From Candidatus Harrisonbacteria bacterium RIFCSPHIGHO2_02_FULL_42_16 (lineage in GTDB: Bacteria > Patescibacteriota > Minisyncoccia > UBA6257 > 02-FULL-45-10c): 58,137 nt of DNA. The notes under the pieces are model-generated. The model was not told where the DNA came from. It was given only the letters and a program-made list of their open reading frames with translations, and made no database searches. The first letter of the stretch is position 1. Every line of letters begins with the position of its first letter. Location of the stretch: contig MHJG01000025.1 of the NCBI GenBank assembly GCA_001818695.1, positions 8,373 to 66,509 of the forward strand, given 5' to 3'. Shown here in pieces: positions 1 through 54,073 of this stretch. Made by a program: the position numbers and the translations under genes.

Positions 1-463
1 ATGCAGCCCTTTTTACTGCCAATGTATTAATCACGATTAAGCTTTCGCTAACATTTAAATCAACGCTTACTTTCTTAAATTTAATAGTTAATGTTAGATC
101 GATATCATGTTCTGTATCTACTAAATTTTTAATCGCCTCATAAAGAGCATCATAATGTTCATTTGAAGCATCAATCACAATTTCCTTTGTTGAGGAATTA
201 AACATATTGTGGATAGTCTTTTGATTTAATCCCGAATTGATCGCAATATCTCTGGCTGGTAAATCTGGATTAAGAAATTCTTTTTTATACCAATCCACTG
301 TTATATCCTTGTTTTTAAGCTTTGCATCAATAACTTTTTTAAAAAAATCAAGGGCAAATTGTAAAAATTCCGTGTTTATTAGCGTTACGACTTCGATTCT
401 ATAATCCTCGCCTTTCAGCAACTTTCTTATTATGTTTTTTGCAACTTGGTCCGTTATTGTCAT
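1..463 (-). CDS. Partial CDS running off the left edge (first 154 codons). Unknown function; candidate partner of the adjacent methyltransferase.
   Basis: Absent from the ORF track because it has no stop in the window. The complement reads ATG (463..461) MTITDQVAKNIIRKLLKGEDYRIEVVTLINTEF... I checked every in-frame triplet down to position 2 and found no stop. Its ATG overlaps the methyltransferase TGA (ATGA at 460..463). Confidence 0.55.
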   Translation of the reverse strand, partial: MTITDQVAKNIIRKLLKGEDYRIEVVTLINTEFLQFALDFFKKVIDAKLKNKDITVDWYKKEFLNPDLPARDIAINSGLNQKTIHNMFNSSTKEIVIDASNEHYDALYEAIKNLVDTEHDIDLTLTIKFKKVSVDLNVSESLIVINTLAVKRAA

Positions 464-1875
464 ATTTTTTCTTCGATTAAATTGATGAAAGATTTTATAT
501 CTACAAATTTCGGCTCAGAGTTTTTTAAGCTAAATAAATTGGCATTTTTCATTAAATCTTCCTTCATGCGATTTACATATTTTGCCTCTTTCTCGGTTAA
601 AAAGAAATGTCGTTTTAGATTAGCTGCCGCCCTTCCCAGAGTCCCGCTTCCGGCAAATGGATCAAATATTAAATCGTCAGCAAATGAATAATATTGAACA
701 ACTCTATTGCATAACTCTATAGGAAAAACTGCACTATGTATTCTGTCAAAAGTCGGGTCAATATGCCAAACATTGGTTGTTTCGTAATTATCTAAAACCT
801 TACTTTTTTTCACTTTTTCCCAACTATATTGATGGATATTCCAATCAATTAATTTATCTGTTTTTTTTCTATAAACCATTAACATCTCGGAAATTGCATT
901 TGGTTTGTACCCCAGCGGTTTTCTGTGTTGTAAAAATCCAGCATTTCTATTTTTAACGCTTGCTTCCGGTTTAACCCATACAATATCGTCAATAAATTGC
1001 CAGCCCATTTTTACCAATAACGGGTGTATGTCGTAGGGAATGGGATATCTTCTACTGGCATGTGCCCGGCTTATTCTTGGAATAATAATCGGCGATGTAT
1101 TAAGTACGAAAAATCTACCTTCTTTTGTTATCCGATGTACTTCTTTAAAAACTTCTTCTAAAAATCTCAAATACTCATCGTAACTTTGGTAAATTGAATA
1201 GTCCCTAGCGTTATAATAAGGTGGTGAAGTAAAAGTTAAATGAATAGAATCGTCGGGAACATGTTTTAATGTTTCAACAACATCTCCTTGTACAATTGTA
1301 TTTTTAAGATAAGCAGGAAATTCGTCATGTTTCCCACTATTGCTTGAACTATAACTTACTCCATTTATCTCTTTCCCAATAACTTCCTTAATCAACTCGT
1401 TTGGATGATCGAGCAGCTTAGATAATTCTTTTTTTACGAGATTATTATTTGAAAAAACAAGTAAACCCCGTATAGCCTGCATTACAACTTTTGGGTCTCT
1501 ATCGGATAATAATTTAATTAAAGTTGGTATTGTTTTTTCATTTCTTAATCTCCCGATTGCGGAAACGGACTCACGCCTAACTTCAGTGCTTTCATCTTGT
1601 TTCGCAAAATTTATAAATGTATCAAGCAAAGAGATATCGCCTATTTTTGCAAGATTTTTTAAAGCAAGTGTTCTAATGGTCTCATTCTCGTTATTTAGTA
1701 GATTTAATAATGGTTGCTTGCTATACTCATTTTCTAATCTACCCAACTTCTCCAGTACATAAACAATGGTGCTGTCATTTTGATCTTGCAAAAATAATAA
1801 GAGAGCTTTCGTATCATTCTTTAAGCTGTCAATCTGTTCTCTATTTATTTGTTTACTCAATACCGATCTATTCAT
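460..1875 (-). CDS. DNA methyltransferase (beta-class N4-cytosine/N6-adenine type) fused to an N-terminal HEAT/PBS-lyase-like repeat domain
   Basis: Motif IV (LTFTSPPYYNARDY) precedes motif I (IFDPFAGSGTLGRAA); the IV->I order indicates beta class, and SPPY favours N4-cytosine. The first ~170 aa are tandem helical repeats (ETIRTLALKNLAKIGD, TEVRRESVSAIGRLRN, DPKVVMQAIRGLL) typical of HEAT repeats. Confidence 0.85.
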   Translation of the reverse strand: MNRSVLSKQINREQIDSLKNDTKALLLFLQDQNDSTIVYVLEKLGRLENEYSKQPLLNLLNNENETIRTLALKNLAKIGDISLLDTFINFAKQDESTEVRRESVSAIGRLRNEKTIPTLIKLLSDRDPKVVMQAIRGLLVFSNNNLVKKELSKLLDHPNELIKEVIGKEINGVSYSSSNSGKHDEFPAYLKNTIVQGDVVETLKHVPDDSIHLTFTSPPYYNARDYSIYQSYDEYLRFLEEVFKEVHRITKEGRFFVLNTSPIIIPRISRAHASRRYPIPYDIHPLLVKMGWQFIDDIVWVKPEASVKNRNAGFLQHRKPLGYKPNAISEMLMVYRKKTDKLIDWNIHQYSWEKVKKSKVLDNYETTNVWHIDPTFDRIHSAVFPIELCNRVVQYYSFADDLIFDPFAGSGTLGRAAANLKRHFFLTEKEAKYVNRMKEDLMKNANLFSLKNSEPKFVDIKSFINLIEEKI

Positions 1876-32078: not shown

Positions 32079-32107
32079 AGTATAGGGCAACAATAGATTA
32101 ATGTCAA
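32079..32107 (-). promoter_or_regulatory. Sigma-70 consensus promoter TTGACA-N17-TATACT
   Basis: The complement of 32102..32107 is TTGACA (overlapping the polX stop) and of 32079..32084 is TATACT. Part of the shared 60-nt cassette. Confidence 0.7.
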
Positions 32108-33876
32108 TCCTTTAAAAATTTCAACATCTTCTCCAATGGCCAAGCATTGATTATATCTCCGCGTTCCACCCAGCCGCGACGCGCCTGCGCAATCCCATAT
32201 TCCAACCATTCAAAATGAAAAATAGAATGGGCATCGGAATCAATAGACATTTTTACTCCTTGCCCAACGCATTTTCTGATATACTCGTCTTTTAAATCAG
32301 CGCGGTCGGAAGCGTTGATTTCCAAAACTGTTTTGGTTTTTTTAGCGTGGCGAACCAATTCCTCCACATCAACATCATACGGCTCCCGTTTATTCAATAT
32401 CCTGCCGGTAGGATGGAAAATAATATCCACATTCGGATTAGACATCGCCCGCTTAATCCGTTCGGTCTGGTCTTTGCGCGACAAATTAAAAACCGAATGA
32501 ACCGACGCGCCCGCTATCTCGCATTTAGATAAAATACTGTCCGGCAAATCCATGGTGCCGTCTTTTAAAATATCACACTCAGTACCCTTAAGAACTTTGA
32601 ATTTTAAACCTTTAACTTTTAACTTGCGGTTGACTTCGTCAATCTCCTGCCATTGCTTTTTAATCCGTTTTTCATCCAGCCCGTTCGTTATGGTTAAACG
32701 CTTGGTATGGTCGGTAATGGCAATATATTCCAAACCGCGCTCCATTGCCGCTCTTGCCATTTCCTCAATGGAATTCGCGCCGTCTGTCCAATTGGTCTGA
32801 ATCTGTAAATCGCCTTTTAAGTCATCGTAACCAACTAAATTTGGAAGTTTTCCGACAATAGACGCTTCAATTTCTCCTGTCATTTCCCGCAATTCCGGCT
32901 CTATATACTGAAGCCCCAGTTTTTCATACAATTCCTCTTCAGTACGCCCGGCAATAAACTTGTCTCTTATCGCTTGTCGCTTGTCGCTTTTAAAAAGTCC
33001 GTACTCGTTTAGCTTCCATCCTTTTTTAATCGCTATTTCCCGCAAAGCAATATTATGCTCCTTAGAACCGGTAAAATAATTCAAAGCGGCGCCGTAGGAT
33101 TCCGCCGGTACCACCCGCACATCCACATCCAAACCGTTTTTTAATTTTACCGCCGATTTAGTTTCTCCACGCGCGAAAACCCTCGCCACTTCCGGCATAT
33201 TTACAAAATAGTCCATTATTTTACCAGCAGTAGCTTTAGCGGAGGCGGGCTGGTTTTCTTTAATAATCACTAAAATATCCGCGTCGCCGATAGTTTCTTT
33301 CCGCCGCCTCACCGAACCGGCGGCTACGGCTTTTTCCACGCCCTTAATGGCGCGAAACCGCGATTCAATTTCCCGAATCTTGGGCATTGCCAGCCCCAAA
33401 ATAAACCGGCCACCGGATTTTTTTAAAAATTCAATTCCCTTTAAGATATTTTCTTCGCTTTTAACTCCAAATCCTTTAAGATTACGGATTCGACCGGAAG
33501 CAATGGCCTTTTCCAAATCCCTTAATCCGCGAATTCCCAATTTTTCATAAAGCGTTTTAAGGGTCTTAGAACCCAACCCCTCAATACCCTGAAAATCCCC
33601 GAGCCGTATCGGAGTTTTTTTTCTTAGGCCATCGTAATAGCGCGAATGTCCGGTCTTAAGCAATTCTTCAACTTTTTCCGCGATAGACGCGCCAACGCCC
33701 GGAATCGCTTCCAGCGCTTTTAGCCCGCCTTTCGTATATATATCTTTTACTTCCTCGCTTAATTCCGATACCGTTTCCGCCACTTTTTCATAAGCTCTTG
33801 GCTTAAAAGGCACAGCATCCATATCCAAATAAATGCTGATTTCATTTAAAATTTTGGCGATTTCTTGATTGTCCAT
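32104..33876 (-). CDS. polX: Family X DNA polymerase with a C-terminal PHP domain (PolX)
   Basis: HhH motifs, the Pol-beta nucleotidyltransferase motif GSVRRRKETIGDADILV and a PHP domain (IAITDHTKRL, SIDSDAH). Confidence 0.9.
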   Translation of the reverse strand: MDNQEIAKILNEISIYLDMDAVPFKPRAYEKVAETVSELSEEVKDIYTKGGLKALEAIPGVGASIAEKVEELLKTGHSRYYDGLRKKTPIRLGDFQGIEGLGSKTLKTLYEKLGIRGLRDLEKAIASGRIRNLKGFGVKSEENILKGIEFLKKSGGRFILGLAMPKIREIESRFRAIKGVEKAVAAGSVRRRKETIGDADILVIIKENQPASAKATAGKIMDYFVNMPEVARVFARGETKSAVKLKNGLDVDVRVVPAESYGAALNYFTGSKEHNIALREIAIKKGWKLNEYGLFKSDKRQAIRDKFIAGRTEEELYEKLGLQYIEPELREMTGEIEASIVGKLPNLVGYDDLKGDLQIQTNWTDGANSIEEMARAAMERGLEYIAITDHTKRLTITNGLDEKRIKKQWQEIDEVNRKLKVKGLKFKVLKGTECDILKDGTMDLPDSILSKCEIAGASVHSVFNLSRKDQTERIKRAMSNPNVDIIFHPTGRILNKREPYDVDVEELVRHAKKTKTVLEINASDRADLKDEYIRKCVGQGVKMSIDSDAHSIFHFEWLEYGIAQARRGWVERGDIINAWPLEKMLKFLKD

Positions 33877-47713: not shown

Positions 47714-47825
47714 TTGACTTATACCGACTACTTGCTGTACTATTTTATTAATAAGTCGTCATTTAGTTGACGGCTTGTACCAAAAGAGCGTGTCCTAGGT
47801 CTAGGGCCCGCTCTTTTGGTTTTTA
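47714..47825 (+). ncRNA. Candidate small RNA: promoter-like TTGACT-N18-TACTAT, then two hairpins, the second with a T-run
   Basis: TTGACT at 47714..47719 and TACTAT at 47738..47743. Hairpin aagtcgtca/tgacggctt. Terminator-like hairpin accaaaagagcg (47779..47790) / cgctcttttggt (47809..47820) followed by TTTT. No plus-strand ORF. Confidence 0.3.
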
Positions 47826-48497
47826 CCATATTTTGTAGAGGTAATTTTTATCAATCACCCTTCTCAAATCCTTATTCTTGCCGGTAAAATAATCTTTAAT
47901 TGCTCCGCTTACAAGGTCTGATAATTGCATAGCGTTTACATATTCCGAATTAACATGCGTGATGTGTTTTATTCGCTTAATCGTTTTAGTATTAACACGC
48001 CCGAATAAGTATTCATCAAAACTACTGAAGTAATCTCCGTTATACATTCTCCTGTCGGCTCGATCGATTACGACTTCCGACTCGGTTAGTTTCTGTTTCT
48101 GCGTGGTAAATAAAACGAGTTTGGATAAATTATAGTCATCAAAAATATTATGTAGTTTTACATGACCAGCTGTCGCAAATTTACCTTTGTAGGTTTGCTT
48201 GTCCACTAAGCGGTAATAAACCGGAATGCCGATTTTATTTATAATCGCAAGTAAATCCATGTACATCGGAAGTGGAATAATGGTAGATTTTATCTCGCTT
48301 CTAAAACCATATTTCTGGCGAATCTCCATAATCTCGTTTTCCAGCGCAAATAATTTTACAGAATCAAGATAAATTGCAGTGAGAATATAAAACAAACTTG
48401 CTCCGGTCGGGATTTTATTTCCATCCGCATTAGTTTCAAACGGCTTCCCCGGATCGCCCGACTCGTCCACAAAAATGTAATGCTGAATGTTGGCCAT
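47823..48497 (-). CDS. DUF3800-family protein
   Basis: N-terminal YIFVDESGDPG hallmark; 224 aa. Confidence 0.75.
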   Translation of the reverse strand: MANIQHYIFVDESGDPGKPFETNADGNKIPTGASLFYILTAIYLDSVKLFALENEIMEIRQKYGFRSEIKSTIIPLPMYMDLLAIINKIGIPVYYRLVDKQTYKGKFATAGHVKLHNIFDDYNLSKLVLFTTQKQKLTESEVVIDRADRRMYNGDYFSSFDEYLFGRVNTKTIKRIKHITHVNSEYVNAMQLSDLVSGAIKDYFTGKNKDLRRVIDKNYLYKIW

Positions 48498-48612
48498 ATT
48501 TATATTTTACCGCCTTTCAATTTTTAAGCCAAATTCTCGCTTGATTATTCTAAAATTTAGATATATTATTTATCATGGTCTGAAATGACATTTTTTAATT
48601 TTCAAAATAAAG

Positions 48613-49518
48613 ATGATAAGTATGTATAAAAAAATTGTCTTGTGGTTATCTCAATTATTAACTACCAGGAATAGAAGCATAAATATGCCGAAATATGACC
48701 AAGAATACATGACACTAGGTTTAGTTATGGAATCTAAAGATGAATTAGATACGGAAATAATTAATTCAACTATAACTATGATTTTGGGGCTAAATTTAAA
48801 TAATATTGTTTTTAAAGATAAAAAAACATGGGAAGATTATTTTAAAAAAGTATTAAATCTTACTAAGAATCTTCTAAAAGCAAACGAACATTATAGAAAA
48901 TATTATAAAGAAGAAGAAATTTTTCTTAGAGAATATAAGAAAAAATGTTTAAAAAATTCAAATACTAATGTATTTTTAACGACAGATCCTGTAAGCTTGA
49001 ATACAGAAATAGATGGATTTTTATCTCAAATAAAATCGGCATTAGATACCCTAGCTACAACCATGAATCCCTTACTGGGATTTAATTTAAATGGTTGGCA
49101 TAAAAATAAAGATAAGGATGGTATCAAAAAAAGTGGAACAAGAATTGTTAATTCTATAGAGAATTTGCCGGAATTTTTAAAAAATAAAGCTAAGGGCCTC
49201 AAAAAACATATTGAAAATAATGTAGACGGGATTACTTACATAGTTAATTTAAGAGACAAAGTTCACCATAGTGGTGGATTAAAAAGTATTACTGATATTA
49301 CCTATGATTTTAGGAATAAAGAGGTCATATCCCAATATATTATTCATTCCGAAGGTAAAGAATTAGTTAAGAATTTTTTATTAAGAACCTTAAAAGATAT
49401 AGTATTATTTTTTAATGACACACTTATTTTATCTATATTAATTAAAACTCCAAGTGGTATGTGCATACGGAAAAATAATAAAAAGGATTTTCCTCCATAT
49501 AATTGGTTTGCATACTGA
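48613..49518 (+). CDS. Hypothetical protein (up to 301 aa) encoded by a very AT-rich gene
   Basis: Divergent from the DUF3800 gene. K/N/I-rich with no recognisable motif. The true start may be the internal MPKYDQEY. Confidence 0.6.
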   Translation: MISMYKKIVLWLSQLLTTRNRSINMPKYDQEYMTLGLVMESKDELDTEIINSTITMILGLNLNNIVFKDKKTWEDYFKKVLNLTKNLLKANEHYRKYYKEEEIFLREYKKKCLKNSNTNVFLTTDPVSLNTEIDGFLSQIKSALDTLATTMNPLLGFNLNGWHKNKDKDGIKKSGTRIVNSIENLPEFLKNKAKGLKKHIENNVDGITYIVNLRDKVHHSGGLKSITDITYDFRNKEVISQYIIHSEGKELVKNFLLRTLKDIVLFFNDTLILSILIKTPSGMCIRKNNKKDFPPYNWFAY

Positions 49519-49851
49519 TTAAAAAATTAGTTATTTAAAGATTTTAAATTAGTTTCGGCTGCATACCACTTAGTCAATAAATAACTTATAAAAAGAGGCG
49601 AATTTTATTTATCGCTGTAACAGTATAGTCCTCAATTCGTTTTAATATTTAGGCAATCCAAAAAGTTTTTGGGTTATCTATCCAAAATAGAATATTTACG
49701 CTTTTGAAAGAATACTTTTTCTTATAAAATAGTTAGATTGCTACCAATCACTATAAAAAATTAAAATAAAGATAGTCTATTCTCTAAAAAGTGGCCATAT
49801 TTTGGTCGTTTTTTGGATTACAAAAATTAATCAATATAACCTTAAATTAAT

Positions 49852-50076
49852 ATGGCAGGAAAACAAGTTTGGGTTAGCCCATCTAATGAGGGGTGGAAAG
49901 TACAGAGTGCTAAAGCAGAAAGAGCCGCCGCAATTGTTGCAACAAAAGTAGAAGCAGTTGAATTAGCTAGAGAAATAGCAATAAATAAAAAGGCTGAGCT
50001 CATAGTTCAAAATCTCGATGGCGAAATTGCTTGGAGAAATTCTTATGGCAATGATTCATTTCCACCAAGGGGATAA
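49852..50076 (+). CDS. DUF2188-like small protein
   Basis: VSPSNEGWKVQSAKAERAAAIVATKVEAVELAREIA matches the DUF2188 pattern. Confidence 0.65.
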   Translation: MAGKQVWVSPSNEGWKVQSAKAERAAAIVATKVEAVELAREIAINKKAELIVQNLDGEIAWRNSYGNDSFPPRG

Positions 50077-50160
50077 AAAGGTGCTTAGAAAACGTGCCTA
50101 GTAGGACGCGATTGCGGAGATAAATTTTCTCCAATTTCGGCCGAAGAGCACACCATCTAT

Positions 50161-50186
50161 AAAAATTAGCCATTAGGCTAATTTTT
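50161..50186. terminator. Bidirectional terminator (aaaaattagcc-atta-ggctaattttt)
   Basis: Read directly. Lies between the convergent DUF2188 gene and the S-subunit gene. Confidence 0.8.
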
Positions 50187-50235
50187 ATTTTAAATCTCCA
50201 ACAATTTTAATCTCCTCCGGGGTGAGGGCGTAGAG

Positions 50236-51195
50236 TTATATTGATGCTGAATAGGGTAGGGACTTTATATAATCTTCCATGAATTTCAAATCGGGATTCC
50301 CAATTTTATCTACTGGAAGTTTAATTTTTTCAAAAGGCAACCTCATTAGCCGAACCTGCCTACCATAGGCATATTTGTGTTTTAATTTGCTTAATATGGC
50401 CACTAAAAATAAAGAGTTGAGTTTATTTAATTCAAAATTAATTGGGACAAGGGTATGGATATTATCATCGCTAAAGTATTTATCGTTATGATAAAAAACA
50501 TTAAAAAACATATCTATCGTTATTTTATTTTCAAATAATTTCTTTTTGTCCTTAAAGTCCTCAAAAGAGATATGCTCTGATACGCCATTATTGTTTTCTC
50601 CGGCAGTTATAAGCGGAACATCGCCCCCTATTCTATCTAACTTCGTCAATCTTTCTCCTTTTTCAAAAGTAAATAAATCGCCCAAACTAAACCATCCCCA
50701 CTTTCGATCAAAAAGAGGGGGTTTTTTATTTGACGCTGATTTTATATTTAATTCATCAATTCTTAATTTTTGAAATCTATCAGGTACTTTCGCAGGTATA
50801 AATAAATCTCTAATGGTCTTATTAGCTTGTCTATTGTAACTATAGCGATACCTGTTTCTTTTTATACAAATTGTATAATAAATCATTTCTCGTTCTGTCA
50901 TTTTTCTTTTGGGCGTAAGATAAAATAAGTCTCGGCCACTGTAATATTCATATGGCTGTAAAAATGTCGCCAAAACCGACCCGCCACCCGCAACAGTTAG
51001 CGTTCCAGAAGAAATCGGTTTTACATCGTTATTTTTTTCTACAAAAGCGGAAACTCCGTTATTATTTTCGGTCCGCGACACAAAGCAAATAGCCTCTTTT
51101 GATCTTTGAGGAACTTCATTTAAATTTATGAGTTCGAGATTCACGCCATATTTAACCTCAAATAAATCTGAAACTTTTACAAGATTCATATTCAT
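50236..51195 (-). CDS. Restriction-modification specificity (S) subunit-like protein with two target-recognition halves
   Basis: Two repeats of the TRD-leading pattern (VKVSDLFEVKYGVN... and WFSLGDLFTFEKGERL...). 4-nt overlap with the upstream RM gene. Confidence 0.7.
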   Translation of the reverse strand: MNMNLVKVSDLFEVKYGVNLELINLNEVPQRSKEAICFVSRTENNNGVSAFVEKNNDVKPISSGTLTVAGGGSVLATFLQPYEYYSGRDLFYLTPKRKMTEREMIYYTICIKRNRYRYSYNRQANKTIRDLFIPAKVPDRFQKLRIDELNIKSASNKKPPLFDRKWGWFSLGDLFTFEKGERLTKLDRIGGDVPLITAGENNNGVSEHISFEDFKDKKKLFENKITIDMFFNVFYHNDKYFSDDNIHTLVPINFELNKLNSLFLVAILSKLKHKYAYGRQVRLMRLPFEKIKLPVDKIGNPDLKFMEDYIKSLPYSASI

Positions 51196-53033
51196 TCATT
51201 TAAAATTTTAAATACCCAATATTTTTTTAACTCTTTTTCAAATTCTTTTTCAGTAATATCAGAGTAGTCGGTTTCGAGATATGCTTCCGCGCACCACTCG
51301 TCATTTATGCCAACTTTTTTTCTTATACTAATTCCCGGCGCAACTTTTCTATTAGTAAAATCAGTAAGCCATTTTTCTTTAATTTTGGGCCACTTATCAG
51401 TCGAAATTCTTCCTTGAATTTTATCTTTTCTAAATCCATCATCTTTCCAATATCCGAACCAGCTCTCGTGATGCGGGTCGCTGTCATGCGGAACATGGGC
51501 AGTAAAAACCATAATACAAGGAACTACGCCAACCGGATAAAATAAATCATTTGGCATGCTCATCACCGCTTCAAGACGATGTTCTTTCAAAAGTTGTTCG
51601 CGCAATGGATGCGGCGCGATAGCAAGCGACATCGGCACAATTACAATTCCCGTGGCATTTTTTTGCAACGCATTAAGTATTTGAATGACAAAGTTCCATT
51701 CATGCAAATCCTCGCCTTTTTGCGAATAGGGCGGGTTAATAAATCCAGCCGTTGCTTTATTTTTAATTTGATTAAAAATTTCTTCATCAAAACAGGAGCC
51801 CTGATACAGGTTTGTTTTGCCATCTCCGCGCAAAATCATATTAGACACCGCCAAGGCGAACATGGACGGTTCTTGCTCAACTCCAATAAGAGAATTTTCC
51901 AAAATTTTCATTCTTTCTTGCTCGCTCACGCCAGTGACCATTTTTTTCATAGCTGAAATAAGAAAACCGGCCGTACCGCAACAAGTATCTAAAACTACGG
52001 AATTTTTATTCAACTTCGCCAAATCGGCGAAAAGTTCGGTGATATGTTTAGGAGTAAGCACAATACCCAGCCCCTGCGCATCGCCGCCGGTATAACGGAT
52101 AAATTCGCCGTAAAAATTGCCAATTATGTCAAAATCAAAATGGTCTTGAGTAAAAGGCTCCATTTTTGAATTTATCTCGCGAACAATATGCGCTAAAGGC
52201 GATTCGTTCCTTTTTTTATCTTTCTTTTGCAATTCCGGATGATATTCAATAAAACTGAAGGCATTTATAATCGCCTGTTTCTTTTCTTCCTGATTTACGC
52301 CGAGCCGAGCTTTATTTATAATATCTTTCAGCGCTTGAAAGGTTTTCTTTGCCAGCTCCCCCTCCTCATATTTCGGATAGGCAACCTTAAAACCTTTTTC
52401 CATAAGGGCAATAAGCACGCCGCTCACGAGAAGAGGCATCTGCGCCACTGTAATTTTTCCGTAATCACGCAAATAATTGTGAAGATCTCTGGAAAAACGG
52501 CTTAAATCGTTTTTTCTCGCGGCCGCTAAATTTTCATCGTATTGCGCGTAACGGATATAATCTTTCCAGACGACAATTTCTTTTACTAAAGCCGGCTTTT
52601 CTGATGTATCCTTGAGCCGTGCCGCGGCTTGAGCGCCCTTAGGATGTAAAAAGGTGTCAATTTTTAATTCTTTTTCAGTTTGACCGCTAACCGCGATGGC
52701 GATTACATTGTATTCTTTGGATAAGCAGGAGGCATATAGTAAAACTCCGTCCACCGCGCGGCTTGCGTATTGATTTTGTTTTAACGATTCATGATATTTT
52801 ATATCCGCCTTGCACTCAATAACAATTAAATATTCCCTGTCTTCTGAATTAGAAATTAAAAATTCCGGCTTGCCCCTGCCTTTTCCGAGTTTACTTTTAC
52901 TTAATAAAAGTTTTTTTATGAAAGGATTTTGAATTATTTGTTCCTCGACTAAGATATTACTATTTTTGTAGTAACCAAAAGATTCTAATTTCTTTCTTAC
53001 TAAAGATTCGGTTATTTTTTCATTTTTACTCAT
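51192..53033 (-). CDS. Fused restriction endonuclease-like N-terminal domain plus gamma-class N6-adenine DNA methyltransferase (BcgI-A-like / Type IIB-IIG architecture)
   Basis: The N-terminus has GKPEFLISNSEDREYLIVIECKAD (E...ExK nuclease-core-like, HSDR_N-like). The centre has motif I (VLDTCCGTAGFL) and motif IV (FINPPYS). 613 aa. Confidence 0.75.
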   Translation of the reverse strand: MSKNEKITESLVRKKLESFGYYKNSNILVEEQIIQNPFIKKLLLSKSKLGKGRGKPEFLISNSEDREYLIVIECKADIKYHESLKQNQYASRAVDGVLLYASCLSKEYNVIAIAVSGQTEKELKIDTFLHPKGAQAAARLKDTSEKPALVKEIVVWKDYIRYAQYDENLAAARKNDLSRFSRDLHNYLRDYGKITVAQMPLLVSGVLIALMEKGFKVAYPKYEEGELAKKTFQALKDIINKARLGVNQEEKKQAIINAFSFIEYHPELQKKDKKRNESPLAHIVREINSKMEPFTQDHFDFDIIGNFYGEFIRYTGGDAQGLGIVLTPKHITELFADLAKLNKNSVVLDTCCGTAGFLISAMKKMVTGVSEQERMKILENSLIGVEQEPSMFALAVSNMILRGDGKTNLYQGSCFDEEIFNQIKNKATAGFINPPYSQKGEDLHEWNFVIQILNALQKNATGIVIVPMSLAIAPHPLREQLLKEHRLEAVMSMPNDLFYPVGVVPCIMVFTAHVPHDSDPHHESWFGYWKDDGFRKDKIQGRISTDKWPKIKEKWLTDFTNRKVAPGISIRKKVGINDEWCAEAYLETDYSDITEKEFEKELKKYWVFKILNE

Positions 53034-53051
53034 AAGAATATTCTAACATTT

Positions 53052-53690
53052 TTATCTAATCTTGCTTAAATTCAAAATTACTTGACCATCAAAATTTATT
53101 TCGCCTGGGATTATGGGGATATTTTTATGAGCCGGATTTTCCGGTTTTAAATATCTTTTGCCTCCCTCCGCCATGAATCTTTTCACAGTGGTGCCATCTT
53201 CGCTTCTTGCGACAACAATATCGCCGCTTTTGAATTCTTTGGATTTTTTAACCAAAAGCATGTCTCCGTCATCAATGCCGGCGTTTATCATTGAATCGCC
53301 GGACACATATACAATAAACACATCGTCAGATTGTCTCACTTTTTCATTTGGAATTATTCCGGATGGAAGATCTACCCATTTAAAACTTGTTTCCGAAAAT
53401 GATTCAATGTATGGACCGGCAGCAACCATTCCCACGATAGGAGCCAGTCTTTGTTTACCCAAAACCCTTAATCCCAAAGGGGTTATTTTAATTCCCCTTG
53501 CTTGTCCTTCTTCTCTTTTGATAAATCCCTGATTTTCAAGAGAATTTAAATAGTTAAGAATAGCTTGATTAGAAGCTAAATCCAGTAATTCTTTTAAATC
53601 AGCAAGTGTGGGAGGAAAACCGGAATCTTTAATGCTTTCATAAATAGATTCCAAAACCCTTTTTTGTTTTTCAGTAATAGCAGTTTTCAT
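53052..53690 (-). CDS. lexA: LexA repressor (S24 self-cleaving)
   Basis: LexA winged-helix N-terminus (KQKRVLESIYESIKDSGFPPTLADL), cleavage site VAAG, and the Ser/Lys dyad in GDSM and VKRF. Confidence 0.92.
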   Translation of the reverse strand: MKTAITEKQKRVLESIYESIKDSGFPPTLADLKELLDLASNQAILNYLNSLENQGFIKREEGQARGIKITPLGLRVLGKQRLAPIVGMVAAGPYIESFSETSFKWVDLPSGIIPNEKVRQSDDVFIVYVSGDSMINAGIDDGDMLLVKKSKEFKSGDIVVARSEDGTTVKRFMAEGGKRYLKPENPAHKNIPIIPGEINFDGQVILNLSKIR

Positions 53691-53703
53691 TACTAATAAG
53701 TAT

Positions 53704-53723
53704 GTATGACTATTTAGTCATAC
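53704..53723. promoter_or_regulatory. Palindrome GTATGAC-N6-GTCATAC 14 nt upstream of the lexA ATG; candidate LexA operator
   Basis: Perfect 7-bp arms, read directly. It sits between a possible TTGCAG and TACATA promoter pair on the minus strand. Confidence 0.5.
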
Positions 53724-53767
53724 TGCAATATGGAGCTGTGGATAACCCCGACGTCCAATTTTCACCC

Positions 53768-53999: not shown

Positions 54000-54073
54000 G
54001 CCCCCATAGCTCAATGGTAGAGCAGCTGCCTTTTAAGCAGTTGATCTTGGTTCGATTCCAAGTGGGGGCACCA
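54000..54073 (+). tRNA. tRNA-Lys (anticodon UUU), CCA encoded
   Basis: GCCCCCA-TA-GCTC-AATGGTA-GAGC-A-GCTGC-CTTTTAA-GCAGT-TGAT-CTTGG-TTCGATT-CCAAG-TGGGGGC-A-CCA. Preceded by TTGATT-N17-TAAAAT. Confidence 0.92.

What the first reader, a model, noticed from the sequence alone, without database searches (positions are those of the whole stretch)
50236..53723. lexA appears to be the first cistron of a BcgI-like fused nuclease-methylase plus S-subunit operon
Three same-strand genes are packed with no intervening hairpin or promoter that I can see.
- lexA (53690->53052) has all LexA hallmarks: a winged-helix N-terminus, the VAAG cleavage site, and the GDSM/VKRF dyad.
- An 18-nt gap follows, containing the palindrome AGAATATTCT.
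- Next is a 613-aa protein. Its N-terminus carries a restriction-endonuclease-like core (PEFLIS...YLIVIECK), followed by gamma-class N6A methylase motifs (VLDTCCGTAGFL, NPPYS).
- A 319-aa two-TRD specificity-like protein then overlaps it by ATGA.

The RM+S layout matches the Type IIB BcgI A/B arrangement. R-M systems are normally controlled by small C-proteins. A self-cleaving SOS repressor heading the operon would instead couple restriction/modification expression to DNA damage. Alternatively, lexA may have been captured by a mobile defence block.
Basis: partly seen in the sequence, partly recalled or inferred. Interest (0 to 1): 0.7.

Follow-up and report, generated by a model that had tools for sequence, protein, structure and literature searches.

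The report
LexA gene heading a restriction-modification locus
In this candidate-phyla-radiation (Patescibacteria) bacterium a self-cleaving LexA repressor gene sits directly in front of a BcgI-like restriction-modification gene pair, and the same pairing with many kinds of restriction systems recurs throughout this bacterial group, which suggests that DNA-damage sensing is wired to anti-phage defence; in this window, however, the restriction gene also carries a promoter of its own.

Summary
lexA (53690-53052) is a canonical LexA. The 613-aa protein is a BcgIA-like nuclease-methylase fusion. The 319-aa protein is a two-TRD specificity subunit that overlaps it by ATGA.

Two points change the picture.

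1. The 18-nt gap is not promoter-free. It holds TGtTAGAAT-N6-ATG, an extended -10 element. The same element lies in front of this RM gene in 21 of 41 relatives, most of which lack lexA, against 12 of 241 other genes.

2. The lexA-RM link is not a local accident. Of 72 close LexA relatives with a downstream ORF, at least 65 have a DNA methylase or RM gene next or next-but-one, usually 0-7 nt away.
- Types I, II and IIB all occur.
- Swaps are scattered over the LexA tree.
- Upstream synteny is absent.

A second LexA paralog, about 7 kb beyond the window, is fused in frame to a CcrM-like methylase.

lexA has a conserved promoter with a GACT-N4-AGTC palindrome between -35 and -10. No terminator precedes the hairpin after S.

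This is a new variant of regulated RM/defence loci. Co-transcription and damage induction remain untested.

The parts
53737..53745 (-). TTATCCACA, identical to the DnaA-box consensus, upstream of the lexA -35
   Evidence: It is the only copy in the window. It is exact in 34 of 75 distinct lexA upstream regions and has at most 1 mismatch in 48 of 75, against 157 of 3443 background windows. Its function is unknown.
53723..53728 (-). Putative lexA -35 (TTGCAG)
   Evidence: It is positionally equivalent to the conserved TTGACA in about 70 relatives. It lies 18 nt from the -10. This is inferred.
53705..53722 (-). Putative LexA operator TATGACTAAATAGTCATA (core GACT-N4-AGTC)
   Evidence: It is a perfect 9+2+9 inverted repeat and unique in the window. 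It is conserved between -35 and -10 of lexA in 69 of 75 relatives, consensus CCTGACTAAATAGTCGGG. One relative carries GAAC-N4-GTTC. Binding is inferred.
53699..53704 (-). Putative lexA -10 (CATACT), 8 nt before the ATG, implying a leaderless or near-leaderless mRNA
   Evidence: It aligns with TATAAT of relatives, which lies 6-8 nt before the lexA start.
53052..53690 (-). lexA, 212 aa: winged-helix DNA-binding domain plus S24 autopeptidase (A91-G92, S133, K170)
   Evidence: The catalytic and cleavage residues are invariant in alignment A2.
53034..53051 (-). lexA-RM spacer carrying an extended -10 (TG 53048-53047, TAGAAT 53045-53040), then 6 nt, then the RM ATG.
   Evidence: TGnTAnnnT lies 5-8 nt before the start in 21 of 41 distinct homologous RM upstream regions, against 12 of 241 other ORFs. 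The spacer has no SD-like motif and no stable fold.
51192..53033 (-). BcgIA-like fused endonuclease-methyltransferase, 613 aa
   Evidence: PADLOC REase_MTase_IIG matches over the full length, E=2e-110, plus a 637-position profile at E=2e-68. Pfam N6_Mtase. More than 6000 homologs, mostly Patescibacteria.
52539..53033 (-). N-terminal nuclease-like domain (residues 1-165) with invariant P56-E57...E73-C74-K75
   Evidence: The motif is invariant in alignments A1, A3 and A5. AF2 gives pLDDT 89.3 and an alpha-beta-beta-beta-alpha-beta topology. The top Foldseek hits are restriction endonucleases, but E is 0.02 or worse. BcgIA E53 lies in a PD..EXK motif (PMC3592470).
51216..52130 (-). Gamma-class N6-adenine methyltransferase domain (motif I VLDTCCGTAGFL, motif IV NPPY)
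   Evidence: Pfam PF02384 covers residues 302-606. PDB HsdM hits.
50236..51195 (-). BcgIB-like specificity subunit, 319 aa, two TRDs; its start overlaps the RM stop (ATGA)
   Evidence: Pfam Methylase_S in two stretches. PADLOC Specificity_II profiles, including a 341-position one.
50159..50188 (.). 13-bp perfect hairpin flanked by A and U runs, between the convergent S and DUF2188 genes: a likely bidirectional terminator that closes the unit
   Evidence: Fold. It is the first strong hairpin downstream of the lexA promoter.

Best explanation
The locus is a LexA-headed Type IIB (BcgI-like) restriction-modification unit in a Patescibacteria genome.

Proposed mechanism:
1. lexA is transcribed from its own promoter. 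A GACT-N4-AGTC palindrome lies between -35 and -10 and is inferred to be the LexA autoregulatory operator.
2. With no terminator until the hairpin after the S gene, this transcript should run on through the nuclease-methylase and S genes.
3. The RM gene also keeps its own extended -10 promoter in the 18-nt spacer. RM expression would therefore be a constitutive basal level plus a LexA-controlled component. That component rises when RecA-stimulated self-cleavage at A91-G92 removes LexA.
4. The arrangement derives from an ancestral, clade-wide lexA-RM operon. That operon is mostly lexA-hsdM of Type I systems with translationally coupled junctions. Its RM cassette has been exchanged repeatedly.

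Shown here: the gene identities, the conserved promoter and operator architecture, the clade-wide linkage, the cassette swapping, and the fused paralog.

Inferred: LexA binding to the palindrome, read-through, damage induction, and nuclease activity.
For: Identities.

No terminator-like fold at the junction (z=0.00). A strong hairpin follows S.

lexA promoter and operator:
- They are conserved in about 70 relatives.
- High-scoring operator sites occur only at lexA promoters in about 1.1 Mb of loci.

Linkage:
- Of 72 LexA-relative loci with a downstream ORF, 54 have an HSDR_N_2+N6_Mtase gene, 3 have the BcgI-like gene, 5 have other DNA methylases, and 3 have a small ORF followed by the methylase.
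- Spacing is mostly -32 to +25 nt.
- S subunits and Abi-type genes follow.
- Relatives at 73-79% identity head Type I (with HsdR), Type II HinfI-like (with AIPR) and Type I loci.
- BcgI-like partners are scattered across the LexA tree, implying at least 8 independent swaps.
- Upstream neighbours are unrelated: 88 of 102 are singletons.
- Other S24/LexA-like regulators flank the same RM family, either co-oriented or divergent.
- A 495-aa LexA-CcrM-like fusion sits about 7 kb away in the same contig. All 120 of its best homologs share the architecture.
- The arrangement is identical in at least 5 contigs from different samples.
Against: - The RM gene has its own conserved extended -10, positioned for a leaderless mRNA exactly as in lexA-less relatives. 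It may be expressed independently of lexA.
- The spacer has no Shine-Dalgarno motif. Translation of RM from a read-through transcript is therefore uncertain.
- No LexA-type operator lies near the RM promoter.
- The window's lexA -10 (CATACT) is weaker than in relatives.
- Most BcgI-like cassettes occur without lexA, so LexA control is not required for this RM family.
- No expression data are available.
- Downstream-of-lexA may be a recombination hot spot rather than a selected regulatory position.
Confidence: 0.55

Rival explanations
1. Adjacency without regulation. The region downstream of lexA is a defence-island or RM integration hot spot. In this window the BcgI-like cassette arrived with its own promoter and is expressed independently of LexA.
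For: - An extended -10 lies in the gap, identical in kind to that of lexA-less relatives.
- Cassette swapping is frequent.
- Variable Abi-type passengers occur: AIPR, OLD, Schlafen, RnlA-like and Fic.
- PADLOC candidate defence genes lie next door.
Against: - In most relatives the methylase start is 0-7 nt from, or overlaps, the lexA stop. That leaves no room for a separate promoter.
- The pairing survives complete loss of other synteny.
- In-frame LexA-methylase fusions are widespread.
- No terminator separates the genes here.
Confidence: 0.25
2. This LexA is not the global SOS regulator. It is a paralog dedicated to the RM/defence locus, playing the role that C proteins play in Type II systems. 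The fused LexA-CcrM-like paralog, or neither, governs repair genes.
For: - Two LexA paralogs lie within about 8 kb and share 31% identity. The fused one scores higher on TIGR00498: 175.9 against 140.3 bits.
- The operator was found only at lexA promoters in the sequence examined.
- RM association is universal.
Against: - Only about 80 kb of this genome and short flanks of the others were searched, so recA, uvr or polymerase promoters were not sampled.
- All autocleavage residues are conserved, so the protein should still respond to RecA*.
- This reading is compatible with the main explanation. It differs only in the scope of the regulon.
Confidence: 0.3
3. lexA was captured by a mobile BcgI-like defence block and travels with it.
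For: lexA + BcgI-like + S recurs in different flanks, in L005/L006, L008, L010 and L033.
Against: - Each of these LexAs is closest to a LexA paired with a different RM type. For example, the window's LexA is 79% identical to L087's, which has a Type I-like methylase.
- About 90% of BcgI-like cassettes in representative genomes lack lexA.
- No close relatives occur on viral contigs: the best is 37% identical.
Confidence: 0.05
4. The 613-aa protein is only a Type I-like methylase with a non-catalytic N-terminal domain, giving an orphan M+S pair with no restriction.
For: - Pfam sees only N6_Mtase.
- The profile comparison with the HSDR_N_2 domain is not significant.
- Foldseek E-values are 0.02 or worse.
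Against: - P-E...E-x-K is invariant across homologs at 44-83% identity.
- The model is confident and has a nuclease-like topology. All the top fold hits are restriction endonucleases.
- The match to REBASE-derived Type IIG/IIB profiles covers the full length.
- The motif has the same layout and position as the BcgIA motif containing E53.
Confidence: 0.1

Closest known systems
BcgI and other two-subunit Type IIB restriction-modification enzymes (BcgIA/BcgIB; BsaXI)
   Same: - The A-type protein has an N-terminal PD/E...EXK nuclease motif followed by a gamma-class N6A methylase.
- A separate specificity protein of about 320-340 aa carries two TRDs.
- The genes are adjacent and overlapping.
- There is no HsdR.
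   Different: - The proteins are not close in sequence to any solved structure.
- The recognition site and cleavage pattern are unknown.
- The pair is preceded by lexA, which is not described for BcgI in the papers read.
- About a third of homologs carry a fused half-S domain.
C-protein-controlled Type II RM systems (e.g. C.PvuII, C.AhdI; from general knowledge)
   Same: A small autoregulated DNA-binding protein is encoded just upstream of, and co-oriented with, RM genes. Its operator lies in its own promoter.
   Different: - The regulator here is a LexA-family wHTH + S24 self-cleaving repressor, not an XRE-type activator/repressor.
- No C-box is present.
- The predicted input is DNA damage rather than the timing of establishment.
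- The enzyme is a single R-M polypeptide, so delaying R relative to M is not the issue.
Canonical LexA/SOS autoregulation (lexA with its operator in its own promoter; Gram-positive GAAC-N4-GTTC box)
   Same: - Domain architecture, cleavage site and catalytic dyad.
- A palindromic operator overlaps the core promoter. Its half-site spacing matches the Cheo box, and one relative carries exactly GAAC-N4-GTTC.
   Different: - The downstream genes are RM/defence genes rather than repair genes.
- A second, methylase-fused paralog is present.
- A DnaA-box-like element is added upstream.
DNA-damage-responsive regulators of defence systems (CapH/CapP of CBASS, WYL-domain BrxR/CapW; from general knowledge, not tested here)
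   Same: The concept is the same: a dedicated repressor next to a defence operon links immune gene expression to DNA damage or infection signals.
   Different: The protein families and mechanisms differ. Here the repressor would be cleaved by its own S24 domain under RecA*.
S24 repressors of mobile elements (lambda CI, SetR of SXT; from general knowledge)
   Same: They are LexA-like self-cleaving repressors that control accessory gene sets.
   Different: No phage or ICE genes are present. Relatives are absent from viral contigs above 37% identity.

Membership tests
LexA (TIGR00498) | N-terminal LexA-type winged-helix DNA-binding domain | tested here: met
   PF01726 covers residues 4-66, E=9e-15. 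TIGR00498 scores 140.3 bits against a cutoff of 110.95.
LexA (TIGR00498) | C-terminal S24 peptidase domain with Ser/Lys dyad and Ala-Gly cleavage site | tested here: met
   PF00717 covers residues 84-204, E=2e-26. A91-G92, S133 and K170 are invariant in alignment A2.
LexA (TIGR00498) | Palindromic operator in its own promoter (autoregulation) | tested here: met
   The palindrome at 53705-53722 lies between the putative -35 and -10 and is conserved in 69 of 75 relatives. Binding itself was not tested.
LexA (TIGR00498) | RecA*-stimulated self-cleavage and control of DNA repair genes | not testable with these tools
   No operator was found at other genes in the window. recA and uvr genes are not in the sequence held.
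Type IIB RM, BcgI-like (A + B subunits) | One polypeptide with both an endonuclease motif and a gamma-class N6A methylase | tested here: met
   Methylase. Nuclease: invariant PE...ECK, a confident nuclease-like model, and a full-length match to the REase_MTase_IIG profile. The structural match is weak, E=0.02.
Type IIB RM, BcgI-like (A + B subunits) | Separate specificity subunit with two TRDs encoded next to the A gene | tested here: met
   The 319-aa protein has PF01420 in two stretches and matches PADLOC Specificity_II. Its start overlaps the A stop by ATGA.
Type IIB RM, BcgI-like (A + B subunits) | Cleavage on both sides of a bipartite site; A2B assembly | not testable with these tools
   This needs biochemistry or methylome data.
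Type I RM (HsdR/M/S) | HsdR helicase-nuclease subunit encoded in the locus | tested here: not met
   No ResIII/helicase gene appears in the window. The only ORF above 750 aa is a ClpB-like AAA protein. By contrast, relative L258 has HsdR downstream of its lexA-hsdM.
C-protein-controlled RM | Small XRE-type C protein and C-box operators | tested here: not met
   The upstream regulator is LexA-family. No other small HTH ORF is in the unit.
lexA-RM operon (single transcription unit) | No promoter or terminator between the cistrons | tested here: inconclusive
   No terminator is present. A conserved extended -10 does sit in the spacer. Transcript mapping is needed.

The most novel reading that the evidence does not exclude
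In a large part of the Patescibacteria, LexA-family repressors have been repurposed as damage-cleavable master switches of DNA-methylation and defence loci. They head Type I, II and IIB RM operons and their Abi passengers, and in another paralog they are fused directly to a CcrM-like methylase. Restriction and methylation levels would then be set by RecA-sensed DNA damage, and perhaps also by DnaA through the conserved TTATCCACA box. The window would be one instance of a general and so far undescribed LexA-immunity circuit.
Probability: 0.35. Interest if true: 0.8.

Novelty: new variant of a known kind. Interest (0 to 1): 0.62.

Why it matters
RM systems are thought to be regulated by C proteins, antisense RNAs or proteolysis. 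Defence systems that listen to DNA damage (CBASS CapH/CapP, BrxR/CapW) are recent discoveries.

A clade-wide operon, and in a paralog a fusion, linking the classical SOS repressor to RM systems of three types would have three consequences:
- It would give CPR bacteria, which have tiny genomes and few regulators, a simple way to raise restriction and methylation when DNA is damaged or invaded.
- It would redefine what 'LexA regulon' means in this superphylum.
- It would offer a directly testable case, because the operator, the promoter and the cleavage residues are all identified.

It also has a practical use for annotation: the position downstream of lexA is a predictable place to find defence cassettes in these genomes.

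Tried and rejected
- Pfam on the N-terminal 300 residues alone found nothing relevant.
- A profile search of the N-terminal domain against PDB sequences found nothing.
- hhalign of the N-terminal domain against the HSDR_N_2 domain of the Type I-like partner was not significant, 3% probability.
- The full-length AF2 model was poor outside the N-terminal domain, pLDDT 51.6. It was not used for fold search.
- The generic sigma-70 scan found no promoter in the gap or upstream of lexA. It requires both hexamers, so it misses extended -10 promoters. Comparative alignment was used instead.
- The second-best operator-like site in the window (32783) lies inside the PolX gene and was dismissed.
- A search for further operator sites in about 1.1 Mb of fetched loci found none outside lexA promoters.
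- Viral contigs hold no close LexA relatives, so a phage origin was rejected.
- Rfam found only three tRNAs.
- The 2017 paper on the Patescibacteria SOS network (Sanchez-Osuna, Barbe, Erill, Environ Microbiol 19:3465) is not held. Five searches of the held full-text library for LexA together with Patescibacteria, Parcubacteria or CPR found no description of this link, so prior description cannot be excluded.


Full report
**Observation**

- lexA, 53690..53052, 212 aa.
- An 18-nt spacer, AAATGTTAGAATATTCTT, 53051..53034.
- A 613-aa ORF, 53033..51192.
- A 319-aa ORF, 51195..50236, whose ATG overlaps the preceding stop (ATGA).

LexA is canonical. Pfam finds LexA_DNA_bind and Peptidase_S24. TIGR00498 scores 140 bits against a cutoff of 111. 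The cleavage site and catalytic residues are A91-G92, S133 and K170.

The 613-aa protein has N6_Mtase over residues 302-606. It matches HsdM structures only in that part. It matches the PADLOC Type IIG REase-MTase profile end to end (E=2e-110), and a 637-position profile at E=2e-68.

The 319-aa protein has two Methylase_S stretches and matches 'Type II specificity subunit' profiles.

A divergent tRNA-Lys lies upstream at 54000-54073.

**The nuclease domain**

Residues 1-165 carry P56-E57...E73-C74-K75. This motif is invariant across homologs down to 44% identity.

The domain alone models with pLDDT 89.3 and an alpha-beta-beta-beta-alpha-beta core. Its best PDB fold matches are all restriction endonucleases: a putative REase domain protein, EcoRV and PfoI. 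They are weak, with E of 0.02 or worse and TM about 0.45.

Sequence-profile routes to known nuclease families failed.

[quoted passage not shown] The motif here sits at the same place.

No HsdR-sized gene is present in the window.

I therefore accept a BcgI-like Type IIB reading. Catalytic competence is inferred, not shown.

**The spacer is a promoter, not an empty gap**

I fetched 80 loci with homologs of the RM gene from representative genomes and several metagenome contigs. Aligning the 60 nt before the RM start showed a recurrent TGnTATAAT followed by 6 nt and the ATG.

Counted strictly, TGnTAnnnT lies 5-8 nt before the start in 21 of 41 distinct Patescibacteria-clade upstream regions. The figure for other ORFs of the same loci is 12 of 241. 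Most of these RM genes have no lexA upstream.

The window's spacer fits exactly: TG-t-TAGAAT-attctt-ATG. Ten-nt palindromes are common here, 85 in the window.

The RM gene therefore very probably has its own promoter producing a leaderless mRNA.

There is no terminator at the junction (fold z-score 0.00). The first strong hairpin is after the S gene, at about 50159-50188. Read-through from lexA remains likely.

**The lexA promoter**

Upstream of lexA the window has the following elements:
- TTATCCACA, 53745-53737.
- TTGCAG, 53728-53723.
- The perfect palindrome TATGACTAAATAGTCATA, 53722-53705.
- CATACT, 53704-53699.
- 8 nt, then the ATG.

The same layout recurs in about 70 related lexA loci: TTATCCACA, a gap, TTGACA, the palindrome CCGACTAAATAGTCGGG, TATAAT, then 6-8 nt and the ATG.

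The palindrome core GACT-N4-AGTC has the geometry of the Gram-positive GAAC-N4-GTTC box, and one relative carries exactly that box. I read it as the LexA autoregulatory operator (inferred).

It is unique in the window. In about 1.1 Mb of fetched loci it occurs only at lexA promoters. None lies near the RM promoter.

**Is the lexA-RM adjacency meaningful?**

From the RM side:
- Canonical LexA genes sit directly upstream and co-oriented in the window, L005/L006, L008, L010 and L033.
- Two other S24/LexA-like types sit upstream in L032 and L024.
- Divergent S24 regulators occur in L003/L004 and L053.
- Most cassettes have no such neighbour.

From the LexA side the picture is much stronger.
- Among the 80 closest LexA relatives in JGI metagenomes, 72 have a downstream ORF.
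  - 54 have a protein of about 650 aa with HSDR_N_2 + N6_Mtase/Eco57I.
  - 3 have the BcgI-like protein.
  - 5 have other DNA methylases (beta- or gamma-class).
  - 3 have a small membrane ORF followed by the 650-aa methylase.
  - Spacing is mostly between -32 and +25 nt.
- S subunits and variable passengers follow: DUF4145, Schlafen/AlbA_2 and an OLD-type ATPase.
- Three relatives with 73-79% identical LexA gave longer contexts:
  - lexA-hsdM-RnlA-like...Fic-RadC-HsdR, a complete Type I system.
  - lexA-N6_N4 methylase-AIPR-R.HinfI, a Type II system.
  - lexA-hsdM...hsdS.
- Upstream neighbours of lexA share nothing: 88 of 102 are singletons.
- On a neighbour-joining LexA tree the BcgI-like partners are scattered. 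Each is nearest to a LexA with a different partner. The window's LexA is sister to L087, which has the Type I-like methylase.
- lexA is therefore the constant partner and the RM cassette is exchanged, at least eight times for the BcgI-like type.
- In some swaps the cassette is translationally coupled (L010, L112). In others, including the window, it kept its own promoter.

**A second LexA**

The window comes from a groundwater contig of 85.8 kb. The same arrangement is seen in at least five contigs from different samples.

About 6.5-8 kb beyond the window's right end, the contig encodes a 495-aa in-frame fusion of LexA (wHTH, AAG site, Ser/Lys) with a CcrM-like beta-class methylase. Its upstream region again has TTATCCACA.

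All 120 best homologs (61-99% identity, 475-610 aa) share the three-domain architecture. Sources name them only 'modification methylase'.

The two paralogs are 31% identical. The fused one scores higher on the LexA model, 175.9 against 140.3 bits. The unfused version of this pair also exists (L110).

It is an independent, Rosetta-stone-type argument that LexA and DNA methylation are functionally tied in this lineage.

**Mechanism proposed**

LexA represses its own promoter through the palindrome. The transcript continues into the RM and S genes. DNA damage (RecA*) cleaves LexA and raises this component. A constitutive RM-proximal promoter supplies a basal level.

Which of the two inputs dominates in this window is unknown. 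The lack of an SD motif in the spacer leaves the translatability of read-through RNA open.

Rivals:
- Hot-spot adjacency without regulation.
- A paralog dedicated to the defence locus rather than a global SOS regulator. This is compatible with the main model.
- Capture of lexA by a mobile RM block. This is disfavoured by the tree.
- A non-catalytic N-terminal domain.

**Novelty**

I found no description of LexA-headed RM operons or LexA-methylase fusions in the searchable literature. The one directly relevant paper, on the Patescibacteria SOS network (2017), is not held. Prior mention therefore cannot be excluded.

Conceptually this is a new variant of regulated RM/defence loci. The regulator is new for RM, and the principle is akin to C proteins and to damage-responsive defence regulators.

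The window's own case is a somewhat diluted example, because the RM gene has its own promoter. The clade-wide pattern it led to is the more interesting result.

Noticed in passing
L247:1971-3458 (about 6.5-8 kb beyond the window's right end, opposite strand to lexA): A 495-aa in-frame fusion of a complete LexA with a CcrM-like beta-class DNA methyltransferase. All 120 best database homologs share the architecture and are annotated only as 'modification methylase'.
   Followed up: partly
window 53737-53745; also L001:5912, L014:3905, L025:2905, L037:3905, L003:5973 and most of L087-L166: The exact DnaA-box consensus TTATCCACA is conserved upstream of the -35 of lexA promoters: 34 of 75 exact and 48 of 75 with at most 1 mismatch, against 4.6% of background windows. 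It also lies about 90 nt upstream of lexA-less BcgI-like RM genes. It occurs in either orientation. Its function is unknown.
   Followed up: partly
window 47823-50076: Just downstream of the RM unit lie DUF2188 (PADLOC candidate PDC-S16, E=6e-26), an unknown ORF of 277-301 aa, and DUF3800 (PDC-M04A). The stretch has low GC (0.28-0.31) and sits before the SecDF core genes. It looks like a small defence islet.
   Followed up: partly
window 460-1875 (-): A 471-aa protein combines HEAT repeats with an N6_N4 DNA methylase domain. It is a third methylase gene within about 60 kb.
   Followed up: no
L087-L166 and L258-L260, downstream of lexA: The usual LexA partner is an HsdM of about 650 aa with an N-terminal HSDR_N_2 domain (invariant D...E-x-K). 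Its best NCBIfam hit is the MADS defence methylase MAD2, below cutoff. Between it and hsdS/hsdR sit variable Abi-type passengers: AIPR, an OLD-type ATPase, Schlafen/AlbA_2, RnlA-like, Fic, RadC, DUF4145 and a conserved membrane ORF of about 130 aa.
   Followed up: partly
Loci L007-L044 and lexA loci L087-L166: First genes of these units typically have a -10 hexamer 6-8 nt before the start codon and no Shine-Dalgarno motif. This suggests that leaderless mRNAs are common in these Patescibacteria. Internal junctions are stop-N(1-7)-ATG, mostly without SD: 11 of 54 have an SD-like 4-mer.
   Followed up: partly
one search hit list; e.g. L008:4001-6358, L033:3538-5922: About a third of the close RM homologs are about 790 aa and carry a C-terminal half-S (one-TRD) domain fused to the nuclease-methylase. 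These are a single-chain variant of the same family.
   Followed up: no
window 32104-33876 (-): A PolX-family DNA polymerase with a PHP domain. An operator-like palindrome (TCTGTCCAATTGGTCTGA, 32783) lies inside its coding region and was judged incidental.
   Followed up: yes
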